A stretch of DNA of 63,202 bases, filler included, from Phoronis australis (taxonomy: Eukaryota > Animalia > Phoronida): the NCBI GenBank assembly GCA_002633005.1. It is 5 parts of 5 records of this genome, joined end to end, with 100 filler letters (N's around TTAATTAATTAA, not from the genome) between each part and the next. Parts side by side here need not be neighbours in the genome. Positions count along the whole stretch, not along the records: positions 1 to 28,095 come from NMRA01001028.1; 4 more parts are not named here. The stretch is one strand, 5' to 3'. Made by a program: the position numbers and the translations under genes. This document shows, piece by piece, positions 5,481-59,779 of the stretch (position 1 is the stretch's first letter; every line of letters begins with the position of its first letter). The notes below the pieces were generated by a model, which saw only the letters and a list, made by a program, of their open reading frames with translations, ran no database searches and was not told the DNA's origin.

Positions 5481-7201
5481 GGAAGTCTAAAGTTCTTTTA
5501 TTTTTTAACACGCGGCCTGGGCTGAACAAGCATAATGTTACTACCTCACGCACTGTACACGCATTCTCATTATTAGCATCTAAAAGCATTCTAAAAGGAC
5601 GAGAGTTGCAGTAGCTTTCTCATCAAATGCACTTCATTTCCAATCCATTGAGGGCGTTTCTGATAGCGTGAAAGCCGTACTTCTAGAACATCCGTGAGTC
5701 TTCTGTGATGGTGAAGTTTAGTGAGATATATCTTCACTTACTATATATATAAGGAATATTCTAATTTTTACTGTGAATTTCTCATTCAGGTAATCCTACA
5801 CTGTGCTAAAAATAGTTGAAATCGTTTTTGGTTTGACGGTCAAATGCACTTTAAGGTTTGTCGATGTGTCACAATATGAATCATATTACTCTAAGTTTTC
5901 AGTCTAAATTGTGTTTTGAAGTCGTGTTTTGTAACTTCTTGCTTTCCTACTTCACGTTATCAATGCAACAATATAACGAATCTTAATTAGAAAAATAAGC
6001 TATGTTGGAATGTAAAGCTTCAAGCCTCCAATCCTTGTTCCTTGCAACTTCATATACAGTAGGTTTAAGTCATGCCTGAAACACCAATCGGTCGCCATGG
6101 TAATAGTTAGGCATGCCCGTGTTGTTGGATAAAGTTAGTAAAGTTTAAATATTCTCATGTACTGTGCATTCTAAGTTATTTATCAAAGTCAAACGTTAGA
6201 TCACTTCGGTTTATGTACATGTATTAACGTAGCAGTACGGAGATTATTTCAGTTATGACTTATGTGCAGTAGATAAAACCCTCAACTTCCTTGAAAGGAT
6301 TTAACTCAAGAAACAAAATAAGGAGTTCCAACTGAAAGAACTTAATTTTGATTTGAATTGTGGAAAACCTAAATGATTAAATCATAATCGTCCTTTAATT
6401 AGTTCTTTCATTTCCGCTATTGAGTGACCAAAGCATGATAGAATTAGTTTACCACAAATAATGTGTTCAGGCATTTTTCGTGATATTTTTGGTTTACTAC
6501 TATTTCAATAGATTAACACACCAATTTAAAAAATATTGTACAGTTGAAATACAAGGTAGCATGCTCCTCATTTGTCTATGCAATCTTTTGACTATCTTAC
6601 AACTGAACAGATATAGTGAAAACTCAGCTTGTCACAGCATTTTATTACAATACCACTTCATTTCGACTGTACAGGCGAAGACGTACCACTGAAAAGTCAT
6701 CCCTTCAAGTGACCTGTTCTGAAATAGGGAATTAATTCGACAGTGGAATGCGGTGATACAAGCGCCAGTTAGTCATTTAAAACACTTCAGAAACTGGTAA
6801 AGTTCACGAAAATTCATTTCTTTACTCTACTTGAAATGAAACTGGGCTTGGCAATGCACAGCTGTGCTTAAAATGTCATGTAAATGTGAAGTGATACTAA
6901 CACAATTGCATAGCACTTTGTTTACTTGGCTGCCATAAGTTATGGCAGACAAGTGCTGTTGTGGGGCTTAGGTGAACTGTGGGCCTGTGGCCTCTCGTGT
7001 TCAATAAAGTTAAAACATCTTATTACGAATTTGTGCTTAAAAGGTATATCGAGAAACAGGCCTTGTGCTTGTTTCCTTTGCTGTGACACGTGATGCTTAG
7101 AATGACTTTTCATGAGAGTCACGTCATAGTCACCCGATGTCAGGCACTCAAGTTCACTGCAATTCTGTTTCCAGAATTCACTCAAGATTCTGCTTTTAAG
7201 T

Positions 7202-7346
7202 ATGGAGAGCGCCCCAAGCAAAATAAGTGACGGTACTGGGCGTACAGACGACAACACTTCTCCGACGTCTCACGCAACTAGTTTTCTTAGATCAACATCT
7301 GAAGATAAACGCGATCCTATAGGTTCTGACAAAAACGTCGAAAAAG
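7202..7346 (+). CDS. First coding exon of the nucleotidyltransferase-TPR gene (low-complexity N-terminus)
   Basis: Acceptor TTCTGTTTCCAG ends at 7174, ATG at 7202, donor AAG|GTAATG after 7346. The 145 nt give phase 1, matching the acceptor at 9044 (G+AA = Glu). Confidence 0.65.
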
Positions 7347-7511
7347 GTAATGAAAACGAATCTTTACAGCTTTGTGTAACAATGATTAATTATTCGTTTA
7401 ACCACTGAAGTTAAACCTGTAGACATGGAACGGTAACTCTCACAAGTGACGCACGCATATTCTGGTGTTGCAGATTTACATAGTCAGATTGGATTTCTGT
7501 ATTTGACGGGT

Positions 7512-7662
7512 GATCCCGATCGCTCAGTGGCTAGAGCGTCTAAGTGATCAGCAGAAAGTCCTATGTTCGAGTCTCAATGAGAGGCAAAAATGTTTTCAGA
7601 CTCCTATTCATTAGGTTACGTAATGTGGCCAACAGGTGGCGTGCAGACCAGATTTAAAATGT
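7512..7662 (+). mobile_element. tRNA-derived SINE-like element or tRNA pseudogene, copy 1
   Basis: A-box-like GCTCAGTGGCTAGAGCG, B-box GTTCGAGTC, broken T-stem; 3' tail shared with copy 2 (GCAAAAA...TTCAGA...ATGTGGCCAACAGGTG). Confidence 0.6.
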
Positions 7663-7754
7663 GTGTGATCTATATTTCCACACCGATTCAATATTTACAT
7701 ATTTATATACACTCACGAGTTGATGATCGGGATGCCCACTGCTAAGTGTGATTG

Positions 7755-7913
7755 GATCCTTTTGTTTCGTTGGTGGTCTAGAGCACATGCACGGTTATCA
7801 GAGCGGGGTCCTGGGTTCGAGTCCCGGTGGGGGGCAAAAAGCTGTTCAGAGTTATGTTCATTACGTCACGTTATGTGGCCAACAGGTGACTTGCACATCA
7901 GACTTAAACATGT
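7755..7913 (+). mobile_element. tRNA-derived SINE-like element or tRNA pseudogene, copy 2
   Basis: GGTGGTCTAGAGCA A-box region, T-arm CTGGG-TTCGAGT-CCCGG, same downstream tail as copy 1. Confidence 0.6.
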
Positions 7914-8254
7914 TTTTAACACTCTAAATAATAATTGTTTGCTTCTGGTATAATCAAACACCATCATGAGCTCATGATAGATATTCTAAGGATATGACTT
8001 GTATGAAGTCACACGAAAATAGCAGAGTTGTGAAGAGATTTAGTGCCATTGAATAAAGTGACATTTTCCGTTTGACCTAGTTTTAGAATTTATTTCACCT
8101 CTTTTTGTGCCAGGTGTTTTACAAGATTGTGGTGATAATGATTGTGTGGATATGTCTTAAGAAAATATTATACTTTCGAAACTGTCTAGATAGCTTTACA
8201 TTGCGCCTAGTATATGTAGCTAAGCAGTGGTATTGACCACGACCTGCATCCGGA

Positions 8255-8320
8255 TTTGCAAGCAGACGATCATCCTTTTGCAAGCAGACGATCATCCTTT
8301 TGCAAGCAGACGATCATCCT
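8255..8320. repeat. 22-bp tandem repeat x3
   Basis: TGCAAGCAGACGATCATCCTTT repeated. Confidence 0.9.
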
Positions 8321-9044
8321 CTTGACAATAATAGTGGAGATTACACCGTAAAATATTTCAATGAAACATTAATGATTTTTTTCGGAAGAAGTTTTCGGTG
8401 ATAACAGATCTAAATTGATTTTACTTCTGCTAAACAAAAATTCAACCCTAAGCCTTATATTTCCTTGCAGCAAACAACACTGGGTCAAACAAATTTAACT
8501 AGCCTATGGATGCACAGCGTGTGATTGAAGTCCATAGCTTTGAAACAGAATTTGGTAATGACTATTACTTAGTCGTCATGAAAAATATTAAGGGTGTAAA
8601 GGGTGTACAAATGTTTATAAAATCGCACTCAAACACAGTGAATTTACTTTTAAACAAAACACATGGGCAAGAATTTAAACTCATGTTTAGAGTTACTGTT
8701 GTTGATATGGGGTAGAAATAAATATCAACAGACCTATCATTTGGATGATGACCATTCTTTGGGGGTATTTCTTTTTAGAACTGGCCAAATTACGCGATTA
8801 ACTGGGCATACGTGGGAGGATGTTCTCGCAGATTTAAAATTTGCGATAATTTGGGCGTAAGCTCGTAAAAGCCACTTTCTTGCTTGTGCTTTGTGGTGTA
8901 TATTTAATATACGCTTAAATTATTTTCTGGAGACTTTTCATTATGGAACCCAACAATTCATGTTAAAGATTCGCTGAAACAGGCGAAAAGTATTTGAAAT
9001 AAAATGACAATGAGAGATTTTCATGCTGACCCATCTCTTTTCAG

Positions 9045-12000
9045 AACAGCTTGACGATGAGGAAAAACGGTTGGCGTCAGAACTACGGCAACTTTCTGAA
9101 GAAGGTAGGAGTTCAAGATTAGGTGGTAAGATACTTCAAAAAATGGGTGACGTTTACAAGCGGCGAGGTTTATTGCAGGAACGAGCACAGCATTTTGTTA
9201 TGGCCTCAGCGTTGTACAATGCCGCATTAATGCGATATAACGAATCTGAACTGAAGCATCAAGTTGAAGCTTCAATGGAACAAAATGAACGAGCATTCTA
9301 CAAAACAATATCCATATCAAAAAATGAAATTCCAATGGGGTTCAGGAATGAAATAAAAAATAAATTGCATCGCATCAGGAAAGATATTACTCCGACAGCA
9401 AATCAGGTACTAGACAAATTTGCTCAAGAATTGAACTTGGACGCAGAAAATAGAGAAAGAGTGATGGTGGAAAAGGAGTTCACTAAAGAAACGAGGCATG
9501 TTTTTGGAGGCCTTTGTACCAATTTGAAGGAATTTCACAAAGATCTTCTGTCAAGATGTCAAAGGATATTAGGCCCACCCCCCCAGGAATACGCTGCCAT
9601 AGCCATGGGATCATTAGCGAGGGGAGATGCAACACCTTATTCAGACTTGGAGTGGGCCATTTTGGTAAAAGATGATGAACAAGATCTTGAGTATTTCAGA
9701 AACATGGTTCGACTTATGCATATATTCGTTTTAAACATTGGCGAAACAAATCTGAGGACCATGAATATTAGGTCACTCAATGATTATTTCACACCTGGTG
9801 AGAACTGGTTCAGTGACACCGTTGTAGCTAGGGGAGTTGAGTTTGATAGTGCTGCGCCTTTTGCTTGCAAAACGCCTCTTGGAAGACCTGACAGACCTGA
9901 AAGACAAGGCATAGAATTGATAAAAACACCCAAACACATGGCGGCATTATGCGAATATGAAACAGCCGTTAAGGAGGGCTATATCTTCGATCGTGTATTA
10001 ACAGTTACAACCAAACTCGATGGGGATGATCATCTTTTTGAAATGTTCAGACAACTTAGAGCAGGTAATCAGGATAAAGAAGACTCACGCAAAAAGTACA
10101 TTCAAGAAATCCGTGACATAGTGGAAGAGTTTTTGCCACAACTGAGTTTTCACACGGAAGCCGGAGCCACTCATGACATTAAAAAAGAGATGCTGCGGTT
10201 GCCGACTGTGGTCATTGTTTTACTGAAACCGTTATTCAGTTTGAATAATGACTTTATCTGGGAGACTATAGATGAGATGATATCTGAATCCATATTGACA
10301 TCCGATGGAGGGCATAATTTGCTTGTGGTCATTTCCATCGTGGCCCTTCTCAGACTCGTGATGTACTGTAGTAAAGAAAAACAGCACGAAGTGTTCGTTT
10401 TGTTTGGAAAATCAATCTCATCTGAGTCGGGAAACAATGCCGTAGTAGGATATAACAAATTCAAATCTTTGGTGGTTCGGTATTATTATTCATTGTTACC
10501 GTTAGCTGATTTTGTTGGAAGTGATCAGTTAGTAGATGCCTGTACAAGGCGACAAATATGTGACAATTTTTTTGAAAGAAGTCAGTTAACAGGAGGCTTA
10601 ATTGAATTATCCTGTTTCTCCTATGAAGATGCCAGAGAACAATTTTTTGCTCACATCGAATCACTTTCAACAAATCCACACGAAAGGACCGGGGAGGACG
10701 TAATAATTCAGCACAAAGGAAAAGATGTTTTCTGTGACCACACAAACAGGACAGTATTGCGATGCCTCTACAAAATCGCTCAAACTTACTTTGTACAAGA
10801 CAAGTTTGAAGAAGCTTTGAAATATAGCTTGCATGCTATCAGACTTGTCCAGCGAAAACACATGGTCAAAAACAGATTGAAAACTCATGACCATGGTCTA
10901 TCGAGGGTCATGTCTGTTTTGAATATGATTGAAAGCTTGCACGAAATGAATAAGCGCAAGTTGGTGTATTTGAGATATGCTGATGAGGAAGTTAGATACA
11001 TGGTAAGTATACTTGATGTAATAGGGAATGTGTGTTTTAGTATATGTAAGTATGACATGGCTTTACAATACTTCCTAGACTCACTGAGCATGGTGAGGAG
11101 GTTACACAGTGAGGGTGACCATTCCATGTTTGGCTCTACTTTGCATAGCATTGGAGATGTCTATAAGGAGATGAGTAAGTACGACTTGGCCTTACAATAC
11201 TACCAAAACTTAATGGGTATGATGAAGAGGATACACGGTGATGGTGACCATCCCTATATTGTCAGAAGTATCCATGCTGTTGGGGATGTGTATAAGGAGA
11301 TGAGTAAGTACGACCTGGCATTACAATACTACCAAGACTCACTGAGTATGGAGAGGAGGCTATACAGTGGCAGTGATCATCCCATCGTTGCGACTAGTTT
11401 GAGTAAAATCGGGGATGTGTATAACGAGATGTGTAAGTACGACCTGGCCTTACAATACTTCCGAGACTCAATGGCTATGATGAAGAGGATACATGGTGAT
11501 GGTGACCATCTCGCCATTGCCACCAGGTTACATTACATTGGGGATGTGTATAACGAGATGAGTAAGTACGACCTGGCCTTACAAAACTACCAAGACTCAT
11601 TGAGTATGAAGAGGAGGATACACGGTGATGGTGACCATCCTAGTATTGCTACTAGTTTGCATAATATTGGGGATGTGTATAAGGAGATGTGGCAGTATGA
11701 CATGGCCTTACAAAACTACCAAGACTCATTGAGTATGAAGAGGAGGATACACGGTGATGGTGACCATCCTAGTATTGCTACTAGTTTGCATAATATTGGG
11801 GATGTGTATAAGGGGATGTGGGAGTACGACCTGGCCTTAAAATACTACCAAGACTCACTGAGTATGAAGAGGAGGGTACATAATGATGGTGATCATCCTA
11901 GTATTGCAACTAGTGTGCATAATATTGGGGATGTGTATAAGGAGATGAGTGAGTACAACATCGCCTTACAATACTATCAAGACTCACTGGATATGATGAA

Positions 12001-12358
12001 GAGGAAACACGGTGATGGTGACCATACCAGGATTGCCATTAGTTTGAAAAACATTGGAGAAGTGTATAGGAAAATGGGTAATTACGACCTGGCCTTACAA
12101 TACTACCAAGACTCACTGAGTATGATGAGGAGGGTGATTGGTGATGGTGACCATCCCTACGTTGCCCTTAATTTGTTTAGTATCGCGATTGTACATTTAT
12201 ATAAAGAAATGAGTAAGTTCGGCCTGGCCTTACAATACTACCGAAACTTACTGAGTATTTTTAGGAGAACACACGGCAGTGACTCTCTCTACATTAAAAT
12301 TATTTTGGTTAATATTGGGTGTGTGTATATTGAGATGTGTAAAAGCAACCTCTCCTAA
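9045..12358 (+). CDS. Large coding exon: N-terminal helical region, DUF294/GlnD-like Pol-beta nucleotidyltransferase, helical substrate-binding domain, and C-terminal array of 43-aa kinesin-light-chain-type TPR repeats
   Basis: 1111-aa ORF 9023-12358 with an acceptor CTCTTTTCAG ending at 9044. NTase motif AIAMGSLARGDATPYSDLEWAILV (GS...DxE, 9608-9652), then HDIKKE (10172), then about 10 repeats such as PSIATSLHNIGDVYKEMWQYDMALQNYQDSLSMKRRIHGDGDH. Confidence 0.9.
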
Positions 12359-25200: not shown

Positions 25201-28024
25201 GAAACGCTGTGCTTTTCTAAGCGATGAGCCACAAACAAACACATCCTACACTTCATTCATGCTCGTCTCAGGCAGATTTTCTTTTTTAGAAAAAGTGGGC
25301 AATAGATAATACTGCTCCACTGACTCAATTGTCAAAAAAAACCAGACAGGTAGTCATATGCTTTTCCCGTCTCGCGAATCAATTTTCCAAAAAGGTAAAA
25401 CATTCATCACATGCTCTATGACAGCTATGCAGCCGTACAAGCCATGAATGTCTTGTTGTAAACATCTCGTTACATGAAATAAGCATCGATTTTGAGAAAT
25501 CCTTAATTTGAATTTCAGGGTTTTTCTGTATCAAATTGTGACAAAACACACTATTCAGCCATGGCCTGTGCTAGACATGTAAAGAATTTCAATGGATACG
25601 GAGACAAGATCAACATACATGTTAAGTACTGAGATCAGTCTATCAACTGTACATATCAGAGTGGAGACACACCTCCAAGCTGATATTGTCATCAACTGTA
25701 CATATCACAGTGTAGACACACTTCCAAGCTGATATTGTCATCAACTGTACATATCAGAGTGGAGACACACCTCCAAGATGATATTGTCATCAACTGTACA
25801 TATCACAGTGGAGACACACCTCCAAGCTCATATTGTCCTTATTCAGCATTACTGTACAAAGCTTTCTAAATTCCATTTCACTGCAAGGCTATATTATAAT
25901 AAATTATACATACAAAACTATAAATTAAAGTTAGTTCATAAAATTATCAAATACAGTTGAGATAACACTCGTCATACATACAGGATTATAAATAAGATCA
26001 ACCTCCACCAATATTGCTCCCTTGACCCTGCTCATCAGTTTCTTGTCTTTAAGACCATACCATATAGGTTCATTAATCTTTGCCTGTAATAACAACTCAC
26101 AATTTTGATCCCAATTGAAATTGATTGAATGCATAATTTCTTCTATGACACAGACATCTAAATGATCAAAATTAACATAAACTTTCTAAAATATTATTTT
26201 ACAAAAAATCCTTTTTGATCTTGTTCAGAACTGGTCAATTTTCAAGTCACCCAAGGCACCACTTCAATCTGTCTGCCACTCAGTTGCTCCTTAGCTCCAA
26301 ACCTTTCACACATTGTCTGCATGACATGGACATGGTATCCGAAATATGAGCGCAATCGCAACTCTGATTTTAAAAATAAAAACGAAATGCCACAGATTGT
26401 TTCATCTTCTCCTGTTAGTTTCTAATATTATTGTATGATCTTAAATTATTATGAAATTTAAGGATGAATACTCCTTAGAGGTCAAATATTCAGTGCTGAC
26501 ACTAAGTTCAATTTTCAGCAAGGACTTTATGTAATGAATATTCATTGCTACAACTGACCAACAAGAGTGGAATGGAGACTTTGCCGAGAAACTCTGACTT
26601 CTTATCTCGGTCTTCGTCATAAACAGTCAACTCGAGTACGGAATGAATATCTTTTACAGTACTGCAACAAAATAACAATGCAATAAAACACACAGTTTGA
26701 AGTATTCAAATTAGAAATGAAGACGGAATGAAAGGTGAAAATCTCCTGTGATAAAAAAATTAGATTTTAAATCAAACGGCACATAGCACACAGAGGTATA
26801 TCACATTATGCACAATTCCTAATAGTGAAAGTTTTACAAATCGTCCAGTACGTCTTCACACTCACAAAGTGAACACTTTGCCCCATTCAGGATTGAGCGT
26901 CTTGTATTCTGTCTGTGTCTGTAGGCGAGCATTGACCAACTCCACCACACAAAACGGGTCACTTTTGCCCCCCAGGTCGGCCGCAGCAAGACCTTGAGCC
27001 TTGATCACCTTTACCTGCACCCAGCCCACATTCTTGAAGTCTTTGAAAGACTTAAACAGACCCTGGTGAGAGAAGGCGGAAACTTTTAAGTAAGAAAGTA
27101 CAGTAATTCTCCACTTATTTCGAACACTGAAGCGAATTTCCCACATTCAAAATTAAAAGGAAAAATAATTCATAGCCCCTTTCGCATGGGCATTTATTTG
27201 GTGTTGAAGCTTCTAATGTCAAACGTCCTAATAGTGGGCCGTTTATTCTGTATTTTGGGAAAAAATTCCTCTTAGAAGCCCACTAAGCGTCAACGTTTTG
27301 TCACAAATTCAATTTTGTGGAGCATTCATCATTATTATATAAAAACAAACAAGGTGATGGTGAACTATGCATTTACTAACATAAAATTTAAAAAGTTAGA
27401 CAGTTTTAAGTACTAAAAAATGCCTAAGTCAGTAAAACTGTGACTTTCCGTTTACACGCCCCCCTCTTTTCTGTTTATTTAGTGTTACTAAACACCTGAA
27501 AACTTTCATTTTCCGAACACACGCCCATGGGCTTATTTATGGAAAACCACGGTAGTGGTGAACTGATATAGCACAACAGTTATTCAACCATTGTTTCGAG
27601 GGTATTTCTTCACATTTGCATGCAATACAAACAGGTGAGATTAAACACCATGCGTGAGATTCAGAGAAAAAGGAACGAGTTTGCAAAAATTATGACACTT
27701 GTTAAGAAAGATTCTGCTCTTGACAAAACAATTGTAATTAAATATCAGTCTGAGTGTGGTTAGTGAGAAAGAATGACTGACATTTGAACTACATGTACAT
27801 GTAACTGGACACACACCTGCTCCATGGCCATACTCACATATTGTCTGACGAGATCGTCTCTCTGTTTAGAAATAGGAGTGTAGTTGGATAGGTCTGAGAC
27901 AGAGTCGGCGCCCATTGTTCCCGTTATGGTCAGTAGTAGTTTGATGGTGCCAGCACCATCTTCTAGCGGAATGTCCACGGAATGAGTCATCTCGTGCTCA
28001 TACTGGGAAAGGTCGACAATGGCC
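19271..28024 (-). CDS. MCTP1: Multiple C2 and transmembrane domain protein (MCTP1/2 orthologue), 3' portion, 12 exons; 5' exons lie beyond the contig break
   Basis: GT-AG exons in consistent phase: 28024-27838, 27062-26866, 26661-26559, 26083-25982, 25057-24983, 24620-24501, 24177-24043, 22817-22761, 22341-22235, 21358-21249, 19551-19454, 19330-19271 (stop). Peptides include C2 [50 protein letters not shown], then [49 protein letters not shown] and [14 protein letters not shown]. Confidence 0.93.
21465..21525. mobile_element. Small hairpin MITE remnant, same family as 42504-42617, opposite orientation
   Basis: Arms TTTTGAGAACCAGTT and AACTGGTTCTTAAAA; the loop resembles the reverse complement of the 42504 loop. 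Confidence 0.55.
21720..22000. repeat. 27-bp minisatellite, about 10 copies, in an MCTP intron
   Basis: Unit TTATGGGATGTACTGCAA(C/T)TCTTTG(C/T)A. Confidence 0.95.
25643..25838. repeat. 49-bp tandem repeat x4
   Basis: TCAACTGTACATATCA(G/C)AGTGGAGACACACCTCCAAGCTGATATTGTCA starting at 25643, 25692, 25741 and 25790. Confidence 0.95.
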
Positions 28025-28626: not shown

Positions 28627-44239
<15,613 letters not shown>

Positions 44240-58692: not shown

Positions 58693-58827
58693 TTCTATGA
58701 TGTGGCGACACAATATGGCACAACGAGGCTACCGTACACGTATGATTTGACATGACTGCATTTGAGCGTTTACATGGCATAAAAATTAGTAGTAACATAT
58801 CAAATTGCAAGAATTTGTCCATTACAG

Positions 58828-59779
58828 AGCGTCAAGAAGGAAATGTCATCGTTACTCAAGTGACAATTGCGCTACACTGAATTATTCTTGTCATTCGAGA
58901 ACTGCTTATCTGCCATCCATCGACGCTCAACAACGCCATCAGCAAAAGTTGGATGTAAAGCATTCGTCTGCATTGGAAAGTAATTCATCAAAGAGCAGTC
59001 AAGATCAGCCAGCTACACTAGAGCCTGAAAACGTTGAGTTGCCTTCTGCCACGCGGGAATTGGTGAAATATCCCCACAGGCAGACGACACAGCAAGCGGA
59101 AGTATTTCGATCCAAATTTTTTGGGGAAGTTGATCGCAACTTTGCGCCGTCGTATTCCGTTAATCACGCACGGTATAACAAAAGAAAATGTGAAATTGAA
59201 AACGAATTGGAGAAACAGATTATGTTTATAAAATCAGAGAATCGAAGGAATCTCGCAGACAGCTTGAAAGGCAGGCAGGTTCTTTATACTTTGAATGGCA
59301 TAGACGAGTTTGAGTCTGTTTCATCTGAACAGGCAGAGATGATTATACAACAAAACAGGAAACTCAATATACATTTACCTGATGGAATTACGGACGAAAT
59401 AAGATCCAATGCATTACATTGTGGTCTGAAAGACGGCACACCACACAGAGTTAGTAACCGCCATTTACACCGGTTAACACGAACCGAAACCATGGCTTCG
59501 TTGCCGTCAGTTCCGTCCATGGCCAGGGATTTCATAAACCAGCCCGATAAAGTTCACGGCATGACAACCAAGTTTCCACTTCTAAAACAAGTCAGTAATG
59601 ACGAGTTCGAAGACCTGGAGAATGAGATGACGCTTAAAGGGTTCAGAGACACGCCTTTCATGAACCACAGAAGGAGACGGCCTGTCAAGAAGATCAAAAA
59701 AGTACTAACAATCGCACATGTGGTCACAAAGCTGCGGGGACTTCAGATTGCAGAGATAAATCGATATGGTCAAAGTTAA
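58828..59779 (+). CDS. Uncharacterised protein, terminal coding exon (about 317 codons), no recognised domain
   Basis: The 324-codon open frame has no ATG near its start but has an acceptor TTTGTCCATTACAG at 58827. It is Ser/Gln-rich with a short coiled-coil-like segment and a basic C-terminus (RRRRPVKKIKK). Confidence 0.65.

What the first reader, a model, noticed from the sequence alone, without database searches (positions are those of the whole stretch)
7202..12358. Animal gene fusing a GlnD/DUF294-type nucleotidyltransferase to a variable TPR array: candidate undescribed sensor-enzyme immune system
Seen: an intact GS...DxE motif (GSLARGDATPYSDLE), later acidic candidates (GVEFD), a helical domain starting HDIKKE and about 10 TPR units, all in one 3.3-kb exon. 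Established: this NTase plus helical bundle pairing is the GlnD/GlnE/DUF294 branch of Pol-beta NTases, mainly bacterial protein uridylyl/adenylyl-transferases. It is distinct from the cGAS/Mab21 and OAS enzymes of animal immunity. Enzyme plus variable superstructure-forming repeats is also the layout of fungal and bacterial NLR-like sensors. Inference: the TPRs bind a ligand and activate the NTase to nucleotidylate a target protein or make a nucleotide messenger. I know of no characterised animal pathway of this type.
Basis: partly seen in the sequence, partly recalled or inferred. Interest (0 to 1): 0.85.

Follow-up and report, generated by a model that had tools for sequence, protein, structure and literature searches.

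The report
Animal DrrA-like AMP-transferase with TPR array
This spliced, expressed animal gene encodes an enzyme domain predicted to fold like the bacterial enzymes that attach AMP to other proteins, joined to a variable repeat array; it belongs to a large family shared by marine invertebrates and bacteria that live inside cells, and likely tags target proteins in host-microbe conflict.

Summary
The gene has two exons (7202-7346, 9045-12358; GT-AG junction seen in RNA reads) and encodes 1152 aa: a TPR-like cap, a Pol-beta nucleotidyltransferase, a HEPN-like helical domain and ten 43-aa TPRs. A confident model (pLDDT 89) matches the protein-AMPylating domain of Legionella DrrA best (Z 23.5, 327 of 339 residues), then glutamine-synthetase adenylyltransferase (Z 18). 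G-S, D-x-E and a third Asp are intact in 179 of 183 family domains. The family is large (1,591 clusters at 50% identity), expanded in amphioxus, present in an annelid, an octocoral and a tunicate, and expanded in chlamydial and other intracellular bacteria, where DUF294+TPR was already described (Neochlamydia NEX2). TPRs vary more than the enzyme, mainly at groove positions; some amphioxus models add CARD, Death or Roc-COR. Best reading: a protein AMP/NMP-transferase whose TPRs pick its target or trigger, likely in host-microbe conflict. Activity, substrate and immune role are untested; transfer direction is unresolved. Nine literature searches found no account of the animal family; this scan noted it before in two other genomes.

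The parts
7202..7346 (+). Exon 1 coding part: ATG, 48 low-complexity polar residues plus one base; no hydrophobic signal-like stretch
   Evidence: Junction reads and stranded depth; in-frame join; hydropathy
7347..9044 (+). Intron, GT..AG, 1698 bp; holds a dispersed repeat near 7480-7910
   Evidence: Joint 7344/9043 'cut +2' GT..AG; self-match 7558-7662 with 7808-7913
9045..12358 (+). Exon 2 coding part, 3314 bp, uninterrupted to the stop
   Evidence: RNA depth checked only to 11050
9047..9316 (+). N-terminal TPR-like four-helix cap
   Evidence: Model helices 2-87; VIA matches to TPR proteins over residues 1-99, Z 9-12
9341..10069 (+). Pol-beta-type nucleotidyltransferase with its leading helices: G-S at 9608-9613, Asp at 9644, Glu at 9650, third Asp at 9845
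   Evidence: Pfam DUF294; conservation; fold match to DrrA and GS-ATase. That 9845 is the third metal ligand is inferred from conservation, not measured on the model
10079..10519 (+). HEPN-like helical domain (DUF294_C/GlnD type) with conserved Lys 10181, Arg 10196, Arg 10352, Tyr 10364; no RNase motif
   Evidence: profile alignment to the DrrA C-terminal half; VIA Z 12.1 to 3l0i_C
10985..12274 (+). Ten 43-aa TPR units (kinesin-light-chain-like, TPR_12/TPR_10), followed by a partial unit to the stop

Best explanation
The gene is spliced and expressed and encodes a nucleotidyltransferase predicted to have the DrrA/GlnE fold with intact catalytic residues, which likely transfers AMP (or another NMP) onto a protein that its variable TPR array likely selects, probably as part of host-microbe conflict. 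Shown: gene structure, transcription, conserved G-S/D-x-E/D and basic residues, family size, TPR variability. Predicted: the fold (AlphaFold2, pLDDT 89). Inferred from DrrA and GS-ATase: Mg-ATP binds between the Pol-beta core and the helical domain and NMP goes to a Tyr/Ser/Thr hydroxyl with loss of pyrophosphate. Inferred: the TPR groove binds the substrate or an activating partner, and paralogues differ in what they bind. Inferred, weakest: the role is defence or symbiont control, and the family reached animals from intracellular bacteria.
For: Fold: Foldseek top hit DrrA 6yx5_B E 3.8e-7, then GS-ATase E 1.6e-6 to 3.6e-6, nothing else under 1e-3; VIA Z 23.5, rmsd 3.8, 327 aligned, against 18.3 and 18.2 for GS-ATase. 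Sequence profile also finds DrrA in both halves (E 2.1e-6). DrrA and GS-ATase use three acidic residues and modify proteins (PMC7815794; PMC12409994); 179 of 183 family domains keep G,S,D/E,D/E,D/E at the matching columns. Family: 1,591 clusters at E<=1e-3, 1,073 at 1e-10; at least 21 RefSeq loci in Branchiostoma belcheri; at least three sequence types over the same positions in one sample of this organism. TPR region less conserved than the core in 215 of 216 close pairs; 4-30 units among such pairs; within-protein variation 0.64 at predicted groove positions against 0.36 on the outer face in 25 proteins, 0.66 against 0.37 in this one, the pattern reported for fungal NLR TPRs (PMC4986451). 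Conflict-type fusions: CARD in P0260 and P0067; Death+Roc-COR, GT4-conflict+Roc-COR, IRF, OTU; in bacteria F-box (P0077) and NB-ARC+TPR (L005). Bacterial members lie in chlamydiae, Jidaibacter, Holosporaceae and unnamed gammaproteobacteria, 6-18 matches per genome.
Against: No activity, substrate or infection data. Identity to DrrA is only 15% and the same fold serves small-molecule transferases (ANT-4) and reverse reactions (GS-ATase N-domain). The family has D-x-E where DrrA has D-x-D. DrrA's allosteric Rab-site residues are not conserved in the family, so a Rab target is unsupported. Immune-type fusions are a minority (7 of 26 hand-picked long proteins had any extra domain; none immune-type among 20 more), and some listed models look like chimeric gene predictions (OSBPL9, LRP1B). 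The gene is transcribed in samples of unknown condition, which fits housekeeping as well. The 216 pairs are not independent, repeat register can lower TPR identity, and among the window's own repeats pN/pS is 0.65, not above 1. Bacterial monophyly is not rejected (AU p 0.217).
Confidence: 0.5

Rival explanations
1. A regulatory, non-immune protein AMPylase: the TPRs dock a fixed host substrate, as the TPRs of FICD dock BiP, and paralogues tune ordinary cell functions.
For: Same fold and catalytic evidence; FICD precedent (PMC8065156 abstract); transcribed in two of three RNA samples without known challenge.
Against: Lineage-specific expansions and patchy distribution, groove-focused TPR variation, CARD/Death fusions are not what a conserved regulator shows.
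Confidence: 0.2
2. A sensor that makes a diffusible nucleotide messenger (cGLR/OAS-like logic on a different NTase branch) after the TPRs bind a ligand.
For: Pol-beta fold; CARD-NTase-TPR and NTase-NB-ARC-TPR layouts; a review passage lists a potential adenylyl cyclase among related enzymes (PMC3710099).
Against: The four significant Foldseek hits and the top three VIA hits are all protein (de)adenylylating domains; no receptor gene lies beside it in the window.
Confidence: 0.14
3. A small-molecule nucleotidyltransferase (ANT-4/kanamycin-NTase-like) that inactivates microbial or dietary compounds.
For: Weak matches to aminoglycoside NTases (phmmer E 0.29; Foldseek prob 0.6-0.84, E about 0.2; NCBIfam E 0.014); D-x-E motif as in ANT-4 (E52 named in PDB titles).
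Against: Far weaker than DrrA/GS-ATase; a long variable protein-binding array has no clear use.
Confidence: 0.07
4. A symbiont-derived gene family that multiplies selfishly or neutrally with little host benefit.
For: Close bacterial relatives in intracellular bacteria; the enzyme and repeats sit in one exon; some other copies show apparent frameshifts in contig alignments (table 4; may be alignment artefacts).
Against: Intron, transcription, catalytic residues kept in 179 of 183 domains across cnidarian, annelid and chordates.
Confidence: 0.07

Closest known systems
DrrA/SidM N-terminal adenylyltransferase domain (Legionella effector; PDB 6yx5, 3nku, 3l0i)
   Same: Predicted fold over 327 of 339 residues, Z 23.5; G-S-x9-D motif and helical-domain Lys/Arg pattern align.
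   Different: 15% identity; D-x-E instead of D-x-D; Tyr where DrrA has His four residues after the conserved Arg; no GEF or P4M domain; TPR cap and TPR array instead; Rab allosteric residues not conserved; encoded by a spliced animal gene.
Neochlamydia NEX2 family, F-box-(OTU)-DUF294-TPR (PMC4209131)
   Same: DUF294 followed by C-terminal TPRs in an expanded family; chlamydial homologues found here at E down to 1e-117. I did not retrieve named NEX2 proteins.
   Different: Bacterial, proposed to be secreted effectors; the window protein has no F-box or OTU; no activity was reported in the passages read.
GlnE (GS-ATase) and GlnD (PII uridylyltransferase)
   Same: Same NTase plus helical domain, Z 18; UniRef auto-names some members 'Protein-PII uridylyltransferase N-terminal domain-containing'.
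   Different: NCBIfam GlnD models score 12-14 bits against cut-offs above 500; no HD, ACT or second ATase domain.
Canonical bacterial CBS-DUF294 proteins
   Same: Pfam DUF294 above cut-off; ESM Atlas neighbours are DUF294/DUF294_C clusters (0.92-0.94; homologue P0010).
   Different: They form a distant, fully supported outgroup and show no Asp at the column of the family's third Asp (sequences printed).
FICD/HYPE (animal TPR+Fic AMPylase)
   Same: TPRs joined to an AMP-transferase; its TPRs give substrate specificity (PMC8065156 abstract).
   Different: Unrelated Fic fold, single conserved ER gene; this family is Pol-beta type, has no signal or membrane anchor evident, and is multi-copy.
Fungal/bacterial NLR-like STAND-TPR sensors
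   Same: Enzyme plus internally similar TPRs with groove-side variation (PMC4986451).
   Different: No NACHT/NB-ARC in the window protein; internal identity is 79% DNA, 57% protein, below that paper's 85% criterion.

Membership tests
Pol-beta NTase, GlnD/GlnE/DrrA/DUF294 branch | G-S followed by D-x-D/E on the catalytic strand | tested here: met
   G 181, S 179, D 180, E 182 of 183
Pol-beta NTase, GlnD/GlnE/DrrA/DUF294 branch | Third acidic metal ligand | tested here: inconclusive
   Asp278 (182 of 183) and Glu244 (178 of 183) are candidates; geometry not measurable, model coordinates not available
Pol-beta NTase, GlnD/GlnE/DrrA/DUF294 branch | C-terminal HEPN-like helical domain without RNase motif | tested here: met
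   Rx4-6H pattern in only 28 of 183, not in this protein; PMC3710099 table
DrrA/SidM | ATase domain fold | tested here: met
   Z 23.5, rmsd 3.8, 327 aligned
DrrA/SidM | GEF and P4M domains; Pfam SidM_N above cut-off | tested here: not met
   SidM_N 21.2 bits against 27; no GEF/P4M hit
DrrA/SidM | AMPylation of Rab1 | not testable with these tools
   Allosteric-site residues not conserved
GlnD/GlnE proper | Full-length model score; HD/ACT or paired ATase domains | tested here: not met
NEX2-like DUF294-TPR family | DUF294 then C-terminal TPR array | tested here: met
NEX2-like DUF294-TPR family | N-terminal F-box (most members), OTU (some) | tested here: not met
   None; exon 1 peptide frame gave no Pfam hit
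cGAS/Mab21, OAS, CD-NTase | Mab21/OAS-type fold and C-terminal domain | tested here: inconclusive
   Not listed among hits; an unlisted family is not excluded
NLR/STAND sensors | Central NACHT or NB-ARC NTPase | tested here: not met
   No hit at E<=1; present in bacterial relative L005
Animal immune receptor | Induction or phenotype on infection | not testable with these tools
   Run conditions not given

The most novel reading that the evidence does not exclude
Marine invertebrates carry a third, undescribed class of animal protein AMPylases, taken over from effector proteins of intracellular bacteria and expanded into a polymorphic immune repertoire in which each TPR array recognises a different microbial or altered-self protein and the DrrA-like domain AMPylates it or a host switch protein.
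Probability: 0.3. Interest if true: 0.85.

Novelty: new variant of a known kind. Interest (0 to 1): 0.62.

Why it matters
Reviews read here name FICD and SelO as the endogenous eukaryotic AMPylases and treat the GS-ATase/SidM fold as bacterial (PMC12409994 passages; PMC8668991 abstract start). A family of over a thousand clusters with that fold, intact active sites and variable binding arrays in amphioxus, annelids, octocorals and tunicates would add a third class of animal protein nucleotidylation, give a directly testable enzyme for invertebrate immunity, and show an effector module shared between intracellular bacteria and animal genomes. It would also correct misleading annotations (TTC28, KLC, PII uridylyltransferase).

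Tried and rejected
No own genome is held, so paralogues could not be counted in the assembly; tblastn found no second copy in the 63-kb window. Contamination or a bacterial contig: rejected (spliced intron; neighbouring animal-type exons matching Rab6IP1/DENND5 and MCTP2). Pseudogene: rejected (open frame, transcripts). HEPN RNase: rejected. Membrane or secreted protein: no N-terminal hydrophobic stretch; the one hydrophobic segment is a helix of the helical domain. Complex prediction of enzyme part with distal TPR array gave no answer. No RNA holder was listed among indexed runs; runs X1-X4 are only guessed to be DNA and X2 shows exon-1 letters at the acceptor, so they may be RNA and give no copy number. 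PADLOC gave only weak motif hits; Rfam one chance-level hit. The amphioxus HGT paper PMC13350694 has no mention of DUF294 or nucleotidyl-; whether its 'TPRP-like' gene belongs here was not checked, supplements not read. PMC2794190 gave no hit for five terms. Supplements of PMC3710099, PMC8195603 (12 of 13 files, one cut) and PMC3482391 gave no DUF294/GlnD hit, but two are near-empty as text. Burroughs and Aravind 2020 was not held and may bear on novelty. The unrooted tree put animals on one side with 38/0 support only; the AU test left direction open. cGAS/OAS were absent from fold hit lists.
Full report
Gene. The window holds one long frame, 9014-12358. Raw stranded RNA reads from three samples of the same species label (about 18-19% of each run read) cover exon 2 on the sense strand as far as I laid them (to 11050): mean depth 12-21 in X6, 7-25 in X7, 0-13 in X8, with the middle of the intron empty; 10 reads in X6, 6 in X7 and none in X8 join 7346 to 9045 across GT..AG. 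The join is in frame and gives 1152 aa. Neighbouring exons match Rab6IP1/DENND5 and MCTP2 (150 of 217 frames of 60 aa or more were scanned), so this is an animal nuclear gene. Residue numbers below are those of the 1114-aa frame P0001; add 38 for the spliced protein.

Domains. Pfam gives DUF294 above cut-off, SidM_N below, and ten TPR_12 stretches. AlphaFold2 on residues 12-579 with an 86-sequence alignment gives pLDDT 89.3, pTM 0.91: a four-helix TPR-like cap, two long helices, the Pol-beta core, a HEPN-like helical bundle and further helices. Foldseek finds 4 PDB chains at E<=0.001: DrrA-Rab8a (3.8e-7) and three GS-ATase chains. VIA over 48,161 chains ranks DrrA first (Z 23.5, rmsd 3.8, 327 of 339 aligned), then GS-ATase (18.3, 18.2); unrelated TPR rows start at 12. 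A 24-sequence profile independently finds DrrA in both halves (E 2.1e-6). The Atlas, asked with the octocoral homologue P0010, returns DUF294/DUF294_C/SidM_N clusters.

Active site. In 183 core domains (from 173 proteins and 10 loci; fragments under 230 model positions dropped) G199, S200, D211, E213 and D278 occur in 181, 179, 180, 182 and 182; K390, R395 and R447 of the helical domain in 181, 176 and 178; all five catalytic columns are intact in 179. DrrA and GS-ATase use three acidic residues to hold Mg-ATP (PMC7815794, passages). That D278 is the third ligand is my inference; E244 (178 of 183) is the alternative. The DrrA allosteric Rab-site residues map by the alignment to K172/E173/K176, which are not family-conserved apart from a basic 172; a Rab substrate is therefore not supported.

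Family. phmmer over 1.84 billion representatives gives 1,591 clusters at E<=1e-3 and 1,073 at 1e-10; only the best 150 were listed. Of 30 looked up, named ones were Branchiostoma (12), Owenia (4), Jidaibacter and a Holosporaceae bacterium; 12 had no organism. Other searches add Dendronephthya, Phallusia and Parachlamydia. B. belcheri has at least 21 RefSeq loci. In this organism, contigs of one sample show at least three sequence types over 10484-10668 (0, 79 of 485 and 92 of 540 differences), more than two alleles if the sample is one animal, which is not known. In GTDB, 10 of 19 pattern hits were relatives, from chlamydial and gammaproteobacterial records; these five genomes hold 6-18 matches each; 12 of 151 genomes of the chlamydial phylum match at 1e-20; 28 of 300 gammaproteobacterial genomes match at 1e-8 but only 3 over the full domain, the short hits inspected being mostly canonical DUF294 proteins. 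DUF294 plus C-terminal TPRs with F-box/OTU was described as the 50-member NEX2 family of Neochlamydia and proposed to act in host cells (PMC4209131, passages).

Trees. FastTree of 183 domains shows lineage-level expansions. IQ-TREE on 34 labelled rows puts the 15 animal rows on one side with 38/0 support. Rooted on four canonical DUF294 proteins (six rows dropped: one long branch, five near-duplicates), animals (61/79) nest among bacterial rows next to Jidaibacter (91/90), and bacteria are one side in 0 of 200 bootstrap trees; yet the AU test does not reject bacterial monophyly (p 0.217). Transfer from intracellular bacteria is favoured, not shown. The window protein groups with an Owenia protein (97/86).

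TPR array. Ten 43-aa units, 79% alike in DNA. Among 153 single-core proteins my unit model finds 0-30 units after the core (43 have none detected). For 216 pairs with core identity of 65% or more, mean identity is 73% in the core and 56% in the TPRs, lower in 215 (pairs not independent). In 25 of 50 proteins with similar repeats, variation is 0.64 at six helix-A positions that I assign to the binding groove (canonical TPR positions 2,5,6,9,12,13, recalled, not from a call) against 0.36 at eight outer positions; 0.66 against 0.37 in this protein. Fungal NLR TPRs of the same kinesin-light-chain type vary on the concave face under positive selection (PMC4986451, section 17). Here pN/pS among repeats is 0.65, so positive selection is not shown.

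Context by fusion. Of 26 long homologues picked by hand, 7 carry extra domains: Death+Roc-COR, GT4-conflict+Roc-COR, IRF, OTU, RickCE, ankyrin, EGF; 20 more gave no immune-type domain at E 1e-12; two amphioxus proteins start with CARD. Bacterial members carry F-box or NB-ARC+TPR. Some animal models are probably chimeric, so these are leads.

Mechanism. Most likely the protein binds Mg-NTP between the Pol-beta core and helical domain and transfers NMP, probably AMP, to a protein hydroxyl; the TPR groove supplies specificity, either by holding the substrate (FICD precedent, PMC8065156 abstract) or by binding an activator (DrrA is allosterically activated). Expansion, groove variation and fusions point to conflict with microbes. 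I put 0.5 on this whole reading, 0.2 on a non-immune regulator, 0.14 on a messenger synthase, 0.07 each on small-molecule transfer and selfish expansion.

Novelty. It works like DrrA/GlnE but fails membership of both; it shares the NEX2 layout without F-box. Nine full-text searches of an open-access library found no description of the animal family; databases auto-label members. Papers seen as passages: PMC4209131, PMC3710099, 10.1101/2023.01.24.525353, PMC13350694, PMC8195603, PMC6321704, PMC3482391, PMC12409994, PMC7815794, PMC12894286; section: PMC4986451; abstract: PMC8065156; listing only: PMC8668991; term search without hits: PMC2794190; supplements searched by term for three. Subscription papers and unseen supplements could hold a prior mention. 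This scan's notes record the same family in an annelid and a sea-squirt genome; they agree with, but are not evidence for, this reading, which came beforehand. Verdict: real, new variant of a known enzyme kind, interest 0.62.

Noticed in passing
window 33699-33896 (-): Exon of a RUN-domain gene, best PDB match Rab6-interacting protein 1 (DENND5), E 9e-11.
   Followed up: partly
window 26511-27146 (-): Two C2-domain exons, best PDB match MCTP2, E 1e-20; 7 kb from the RUN exon on the same strand, gene boundaries not worked out.
   Followed up: partly
window 58796-59779 (+): 327-aa open frame with no significant Pfam hit; may be a coding exon.
   Followed up: no
window 7480-7910 and 5990-6055: Dispersed repeats that collect many partial reads from elsewhere; two related copies in the intron; possibly a SINE.
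   Followed up: no
run X8 on window 9045-11050: Almost no reads at 99% identity (4, against about 200 in X6 and X7) and no junction reads: this sample shows mainly another copy or allele.
   Followed up: no
L005 2297-8596; G003: An unnamed gammaproteobacterial MAG has 18 matches, mostly in 1.7-3.0 k-aa frames; one reads NTase-NB-ARC-TPR, an NLR-like layout with this enzyme in the effector position.
   Followed up: partly
L001 2960-5737: Chlamydial member fused to a methyltransferase domain, no TPR hit.
   Followed up: no
window 10352-10366: Family-wide R-L-x-x-Y in the helical domain (Tyr in 172 of 183) where DrrA has His; role unknown.
   Followed up: no
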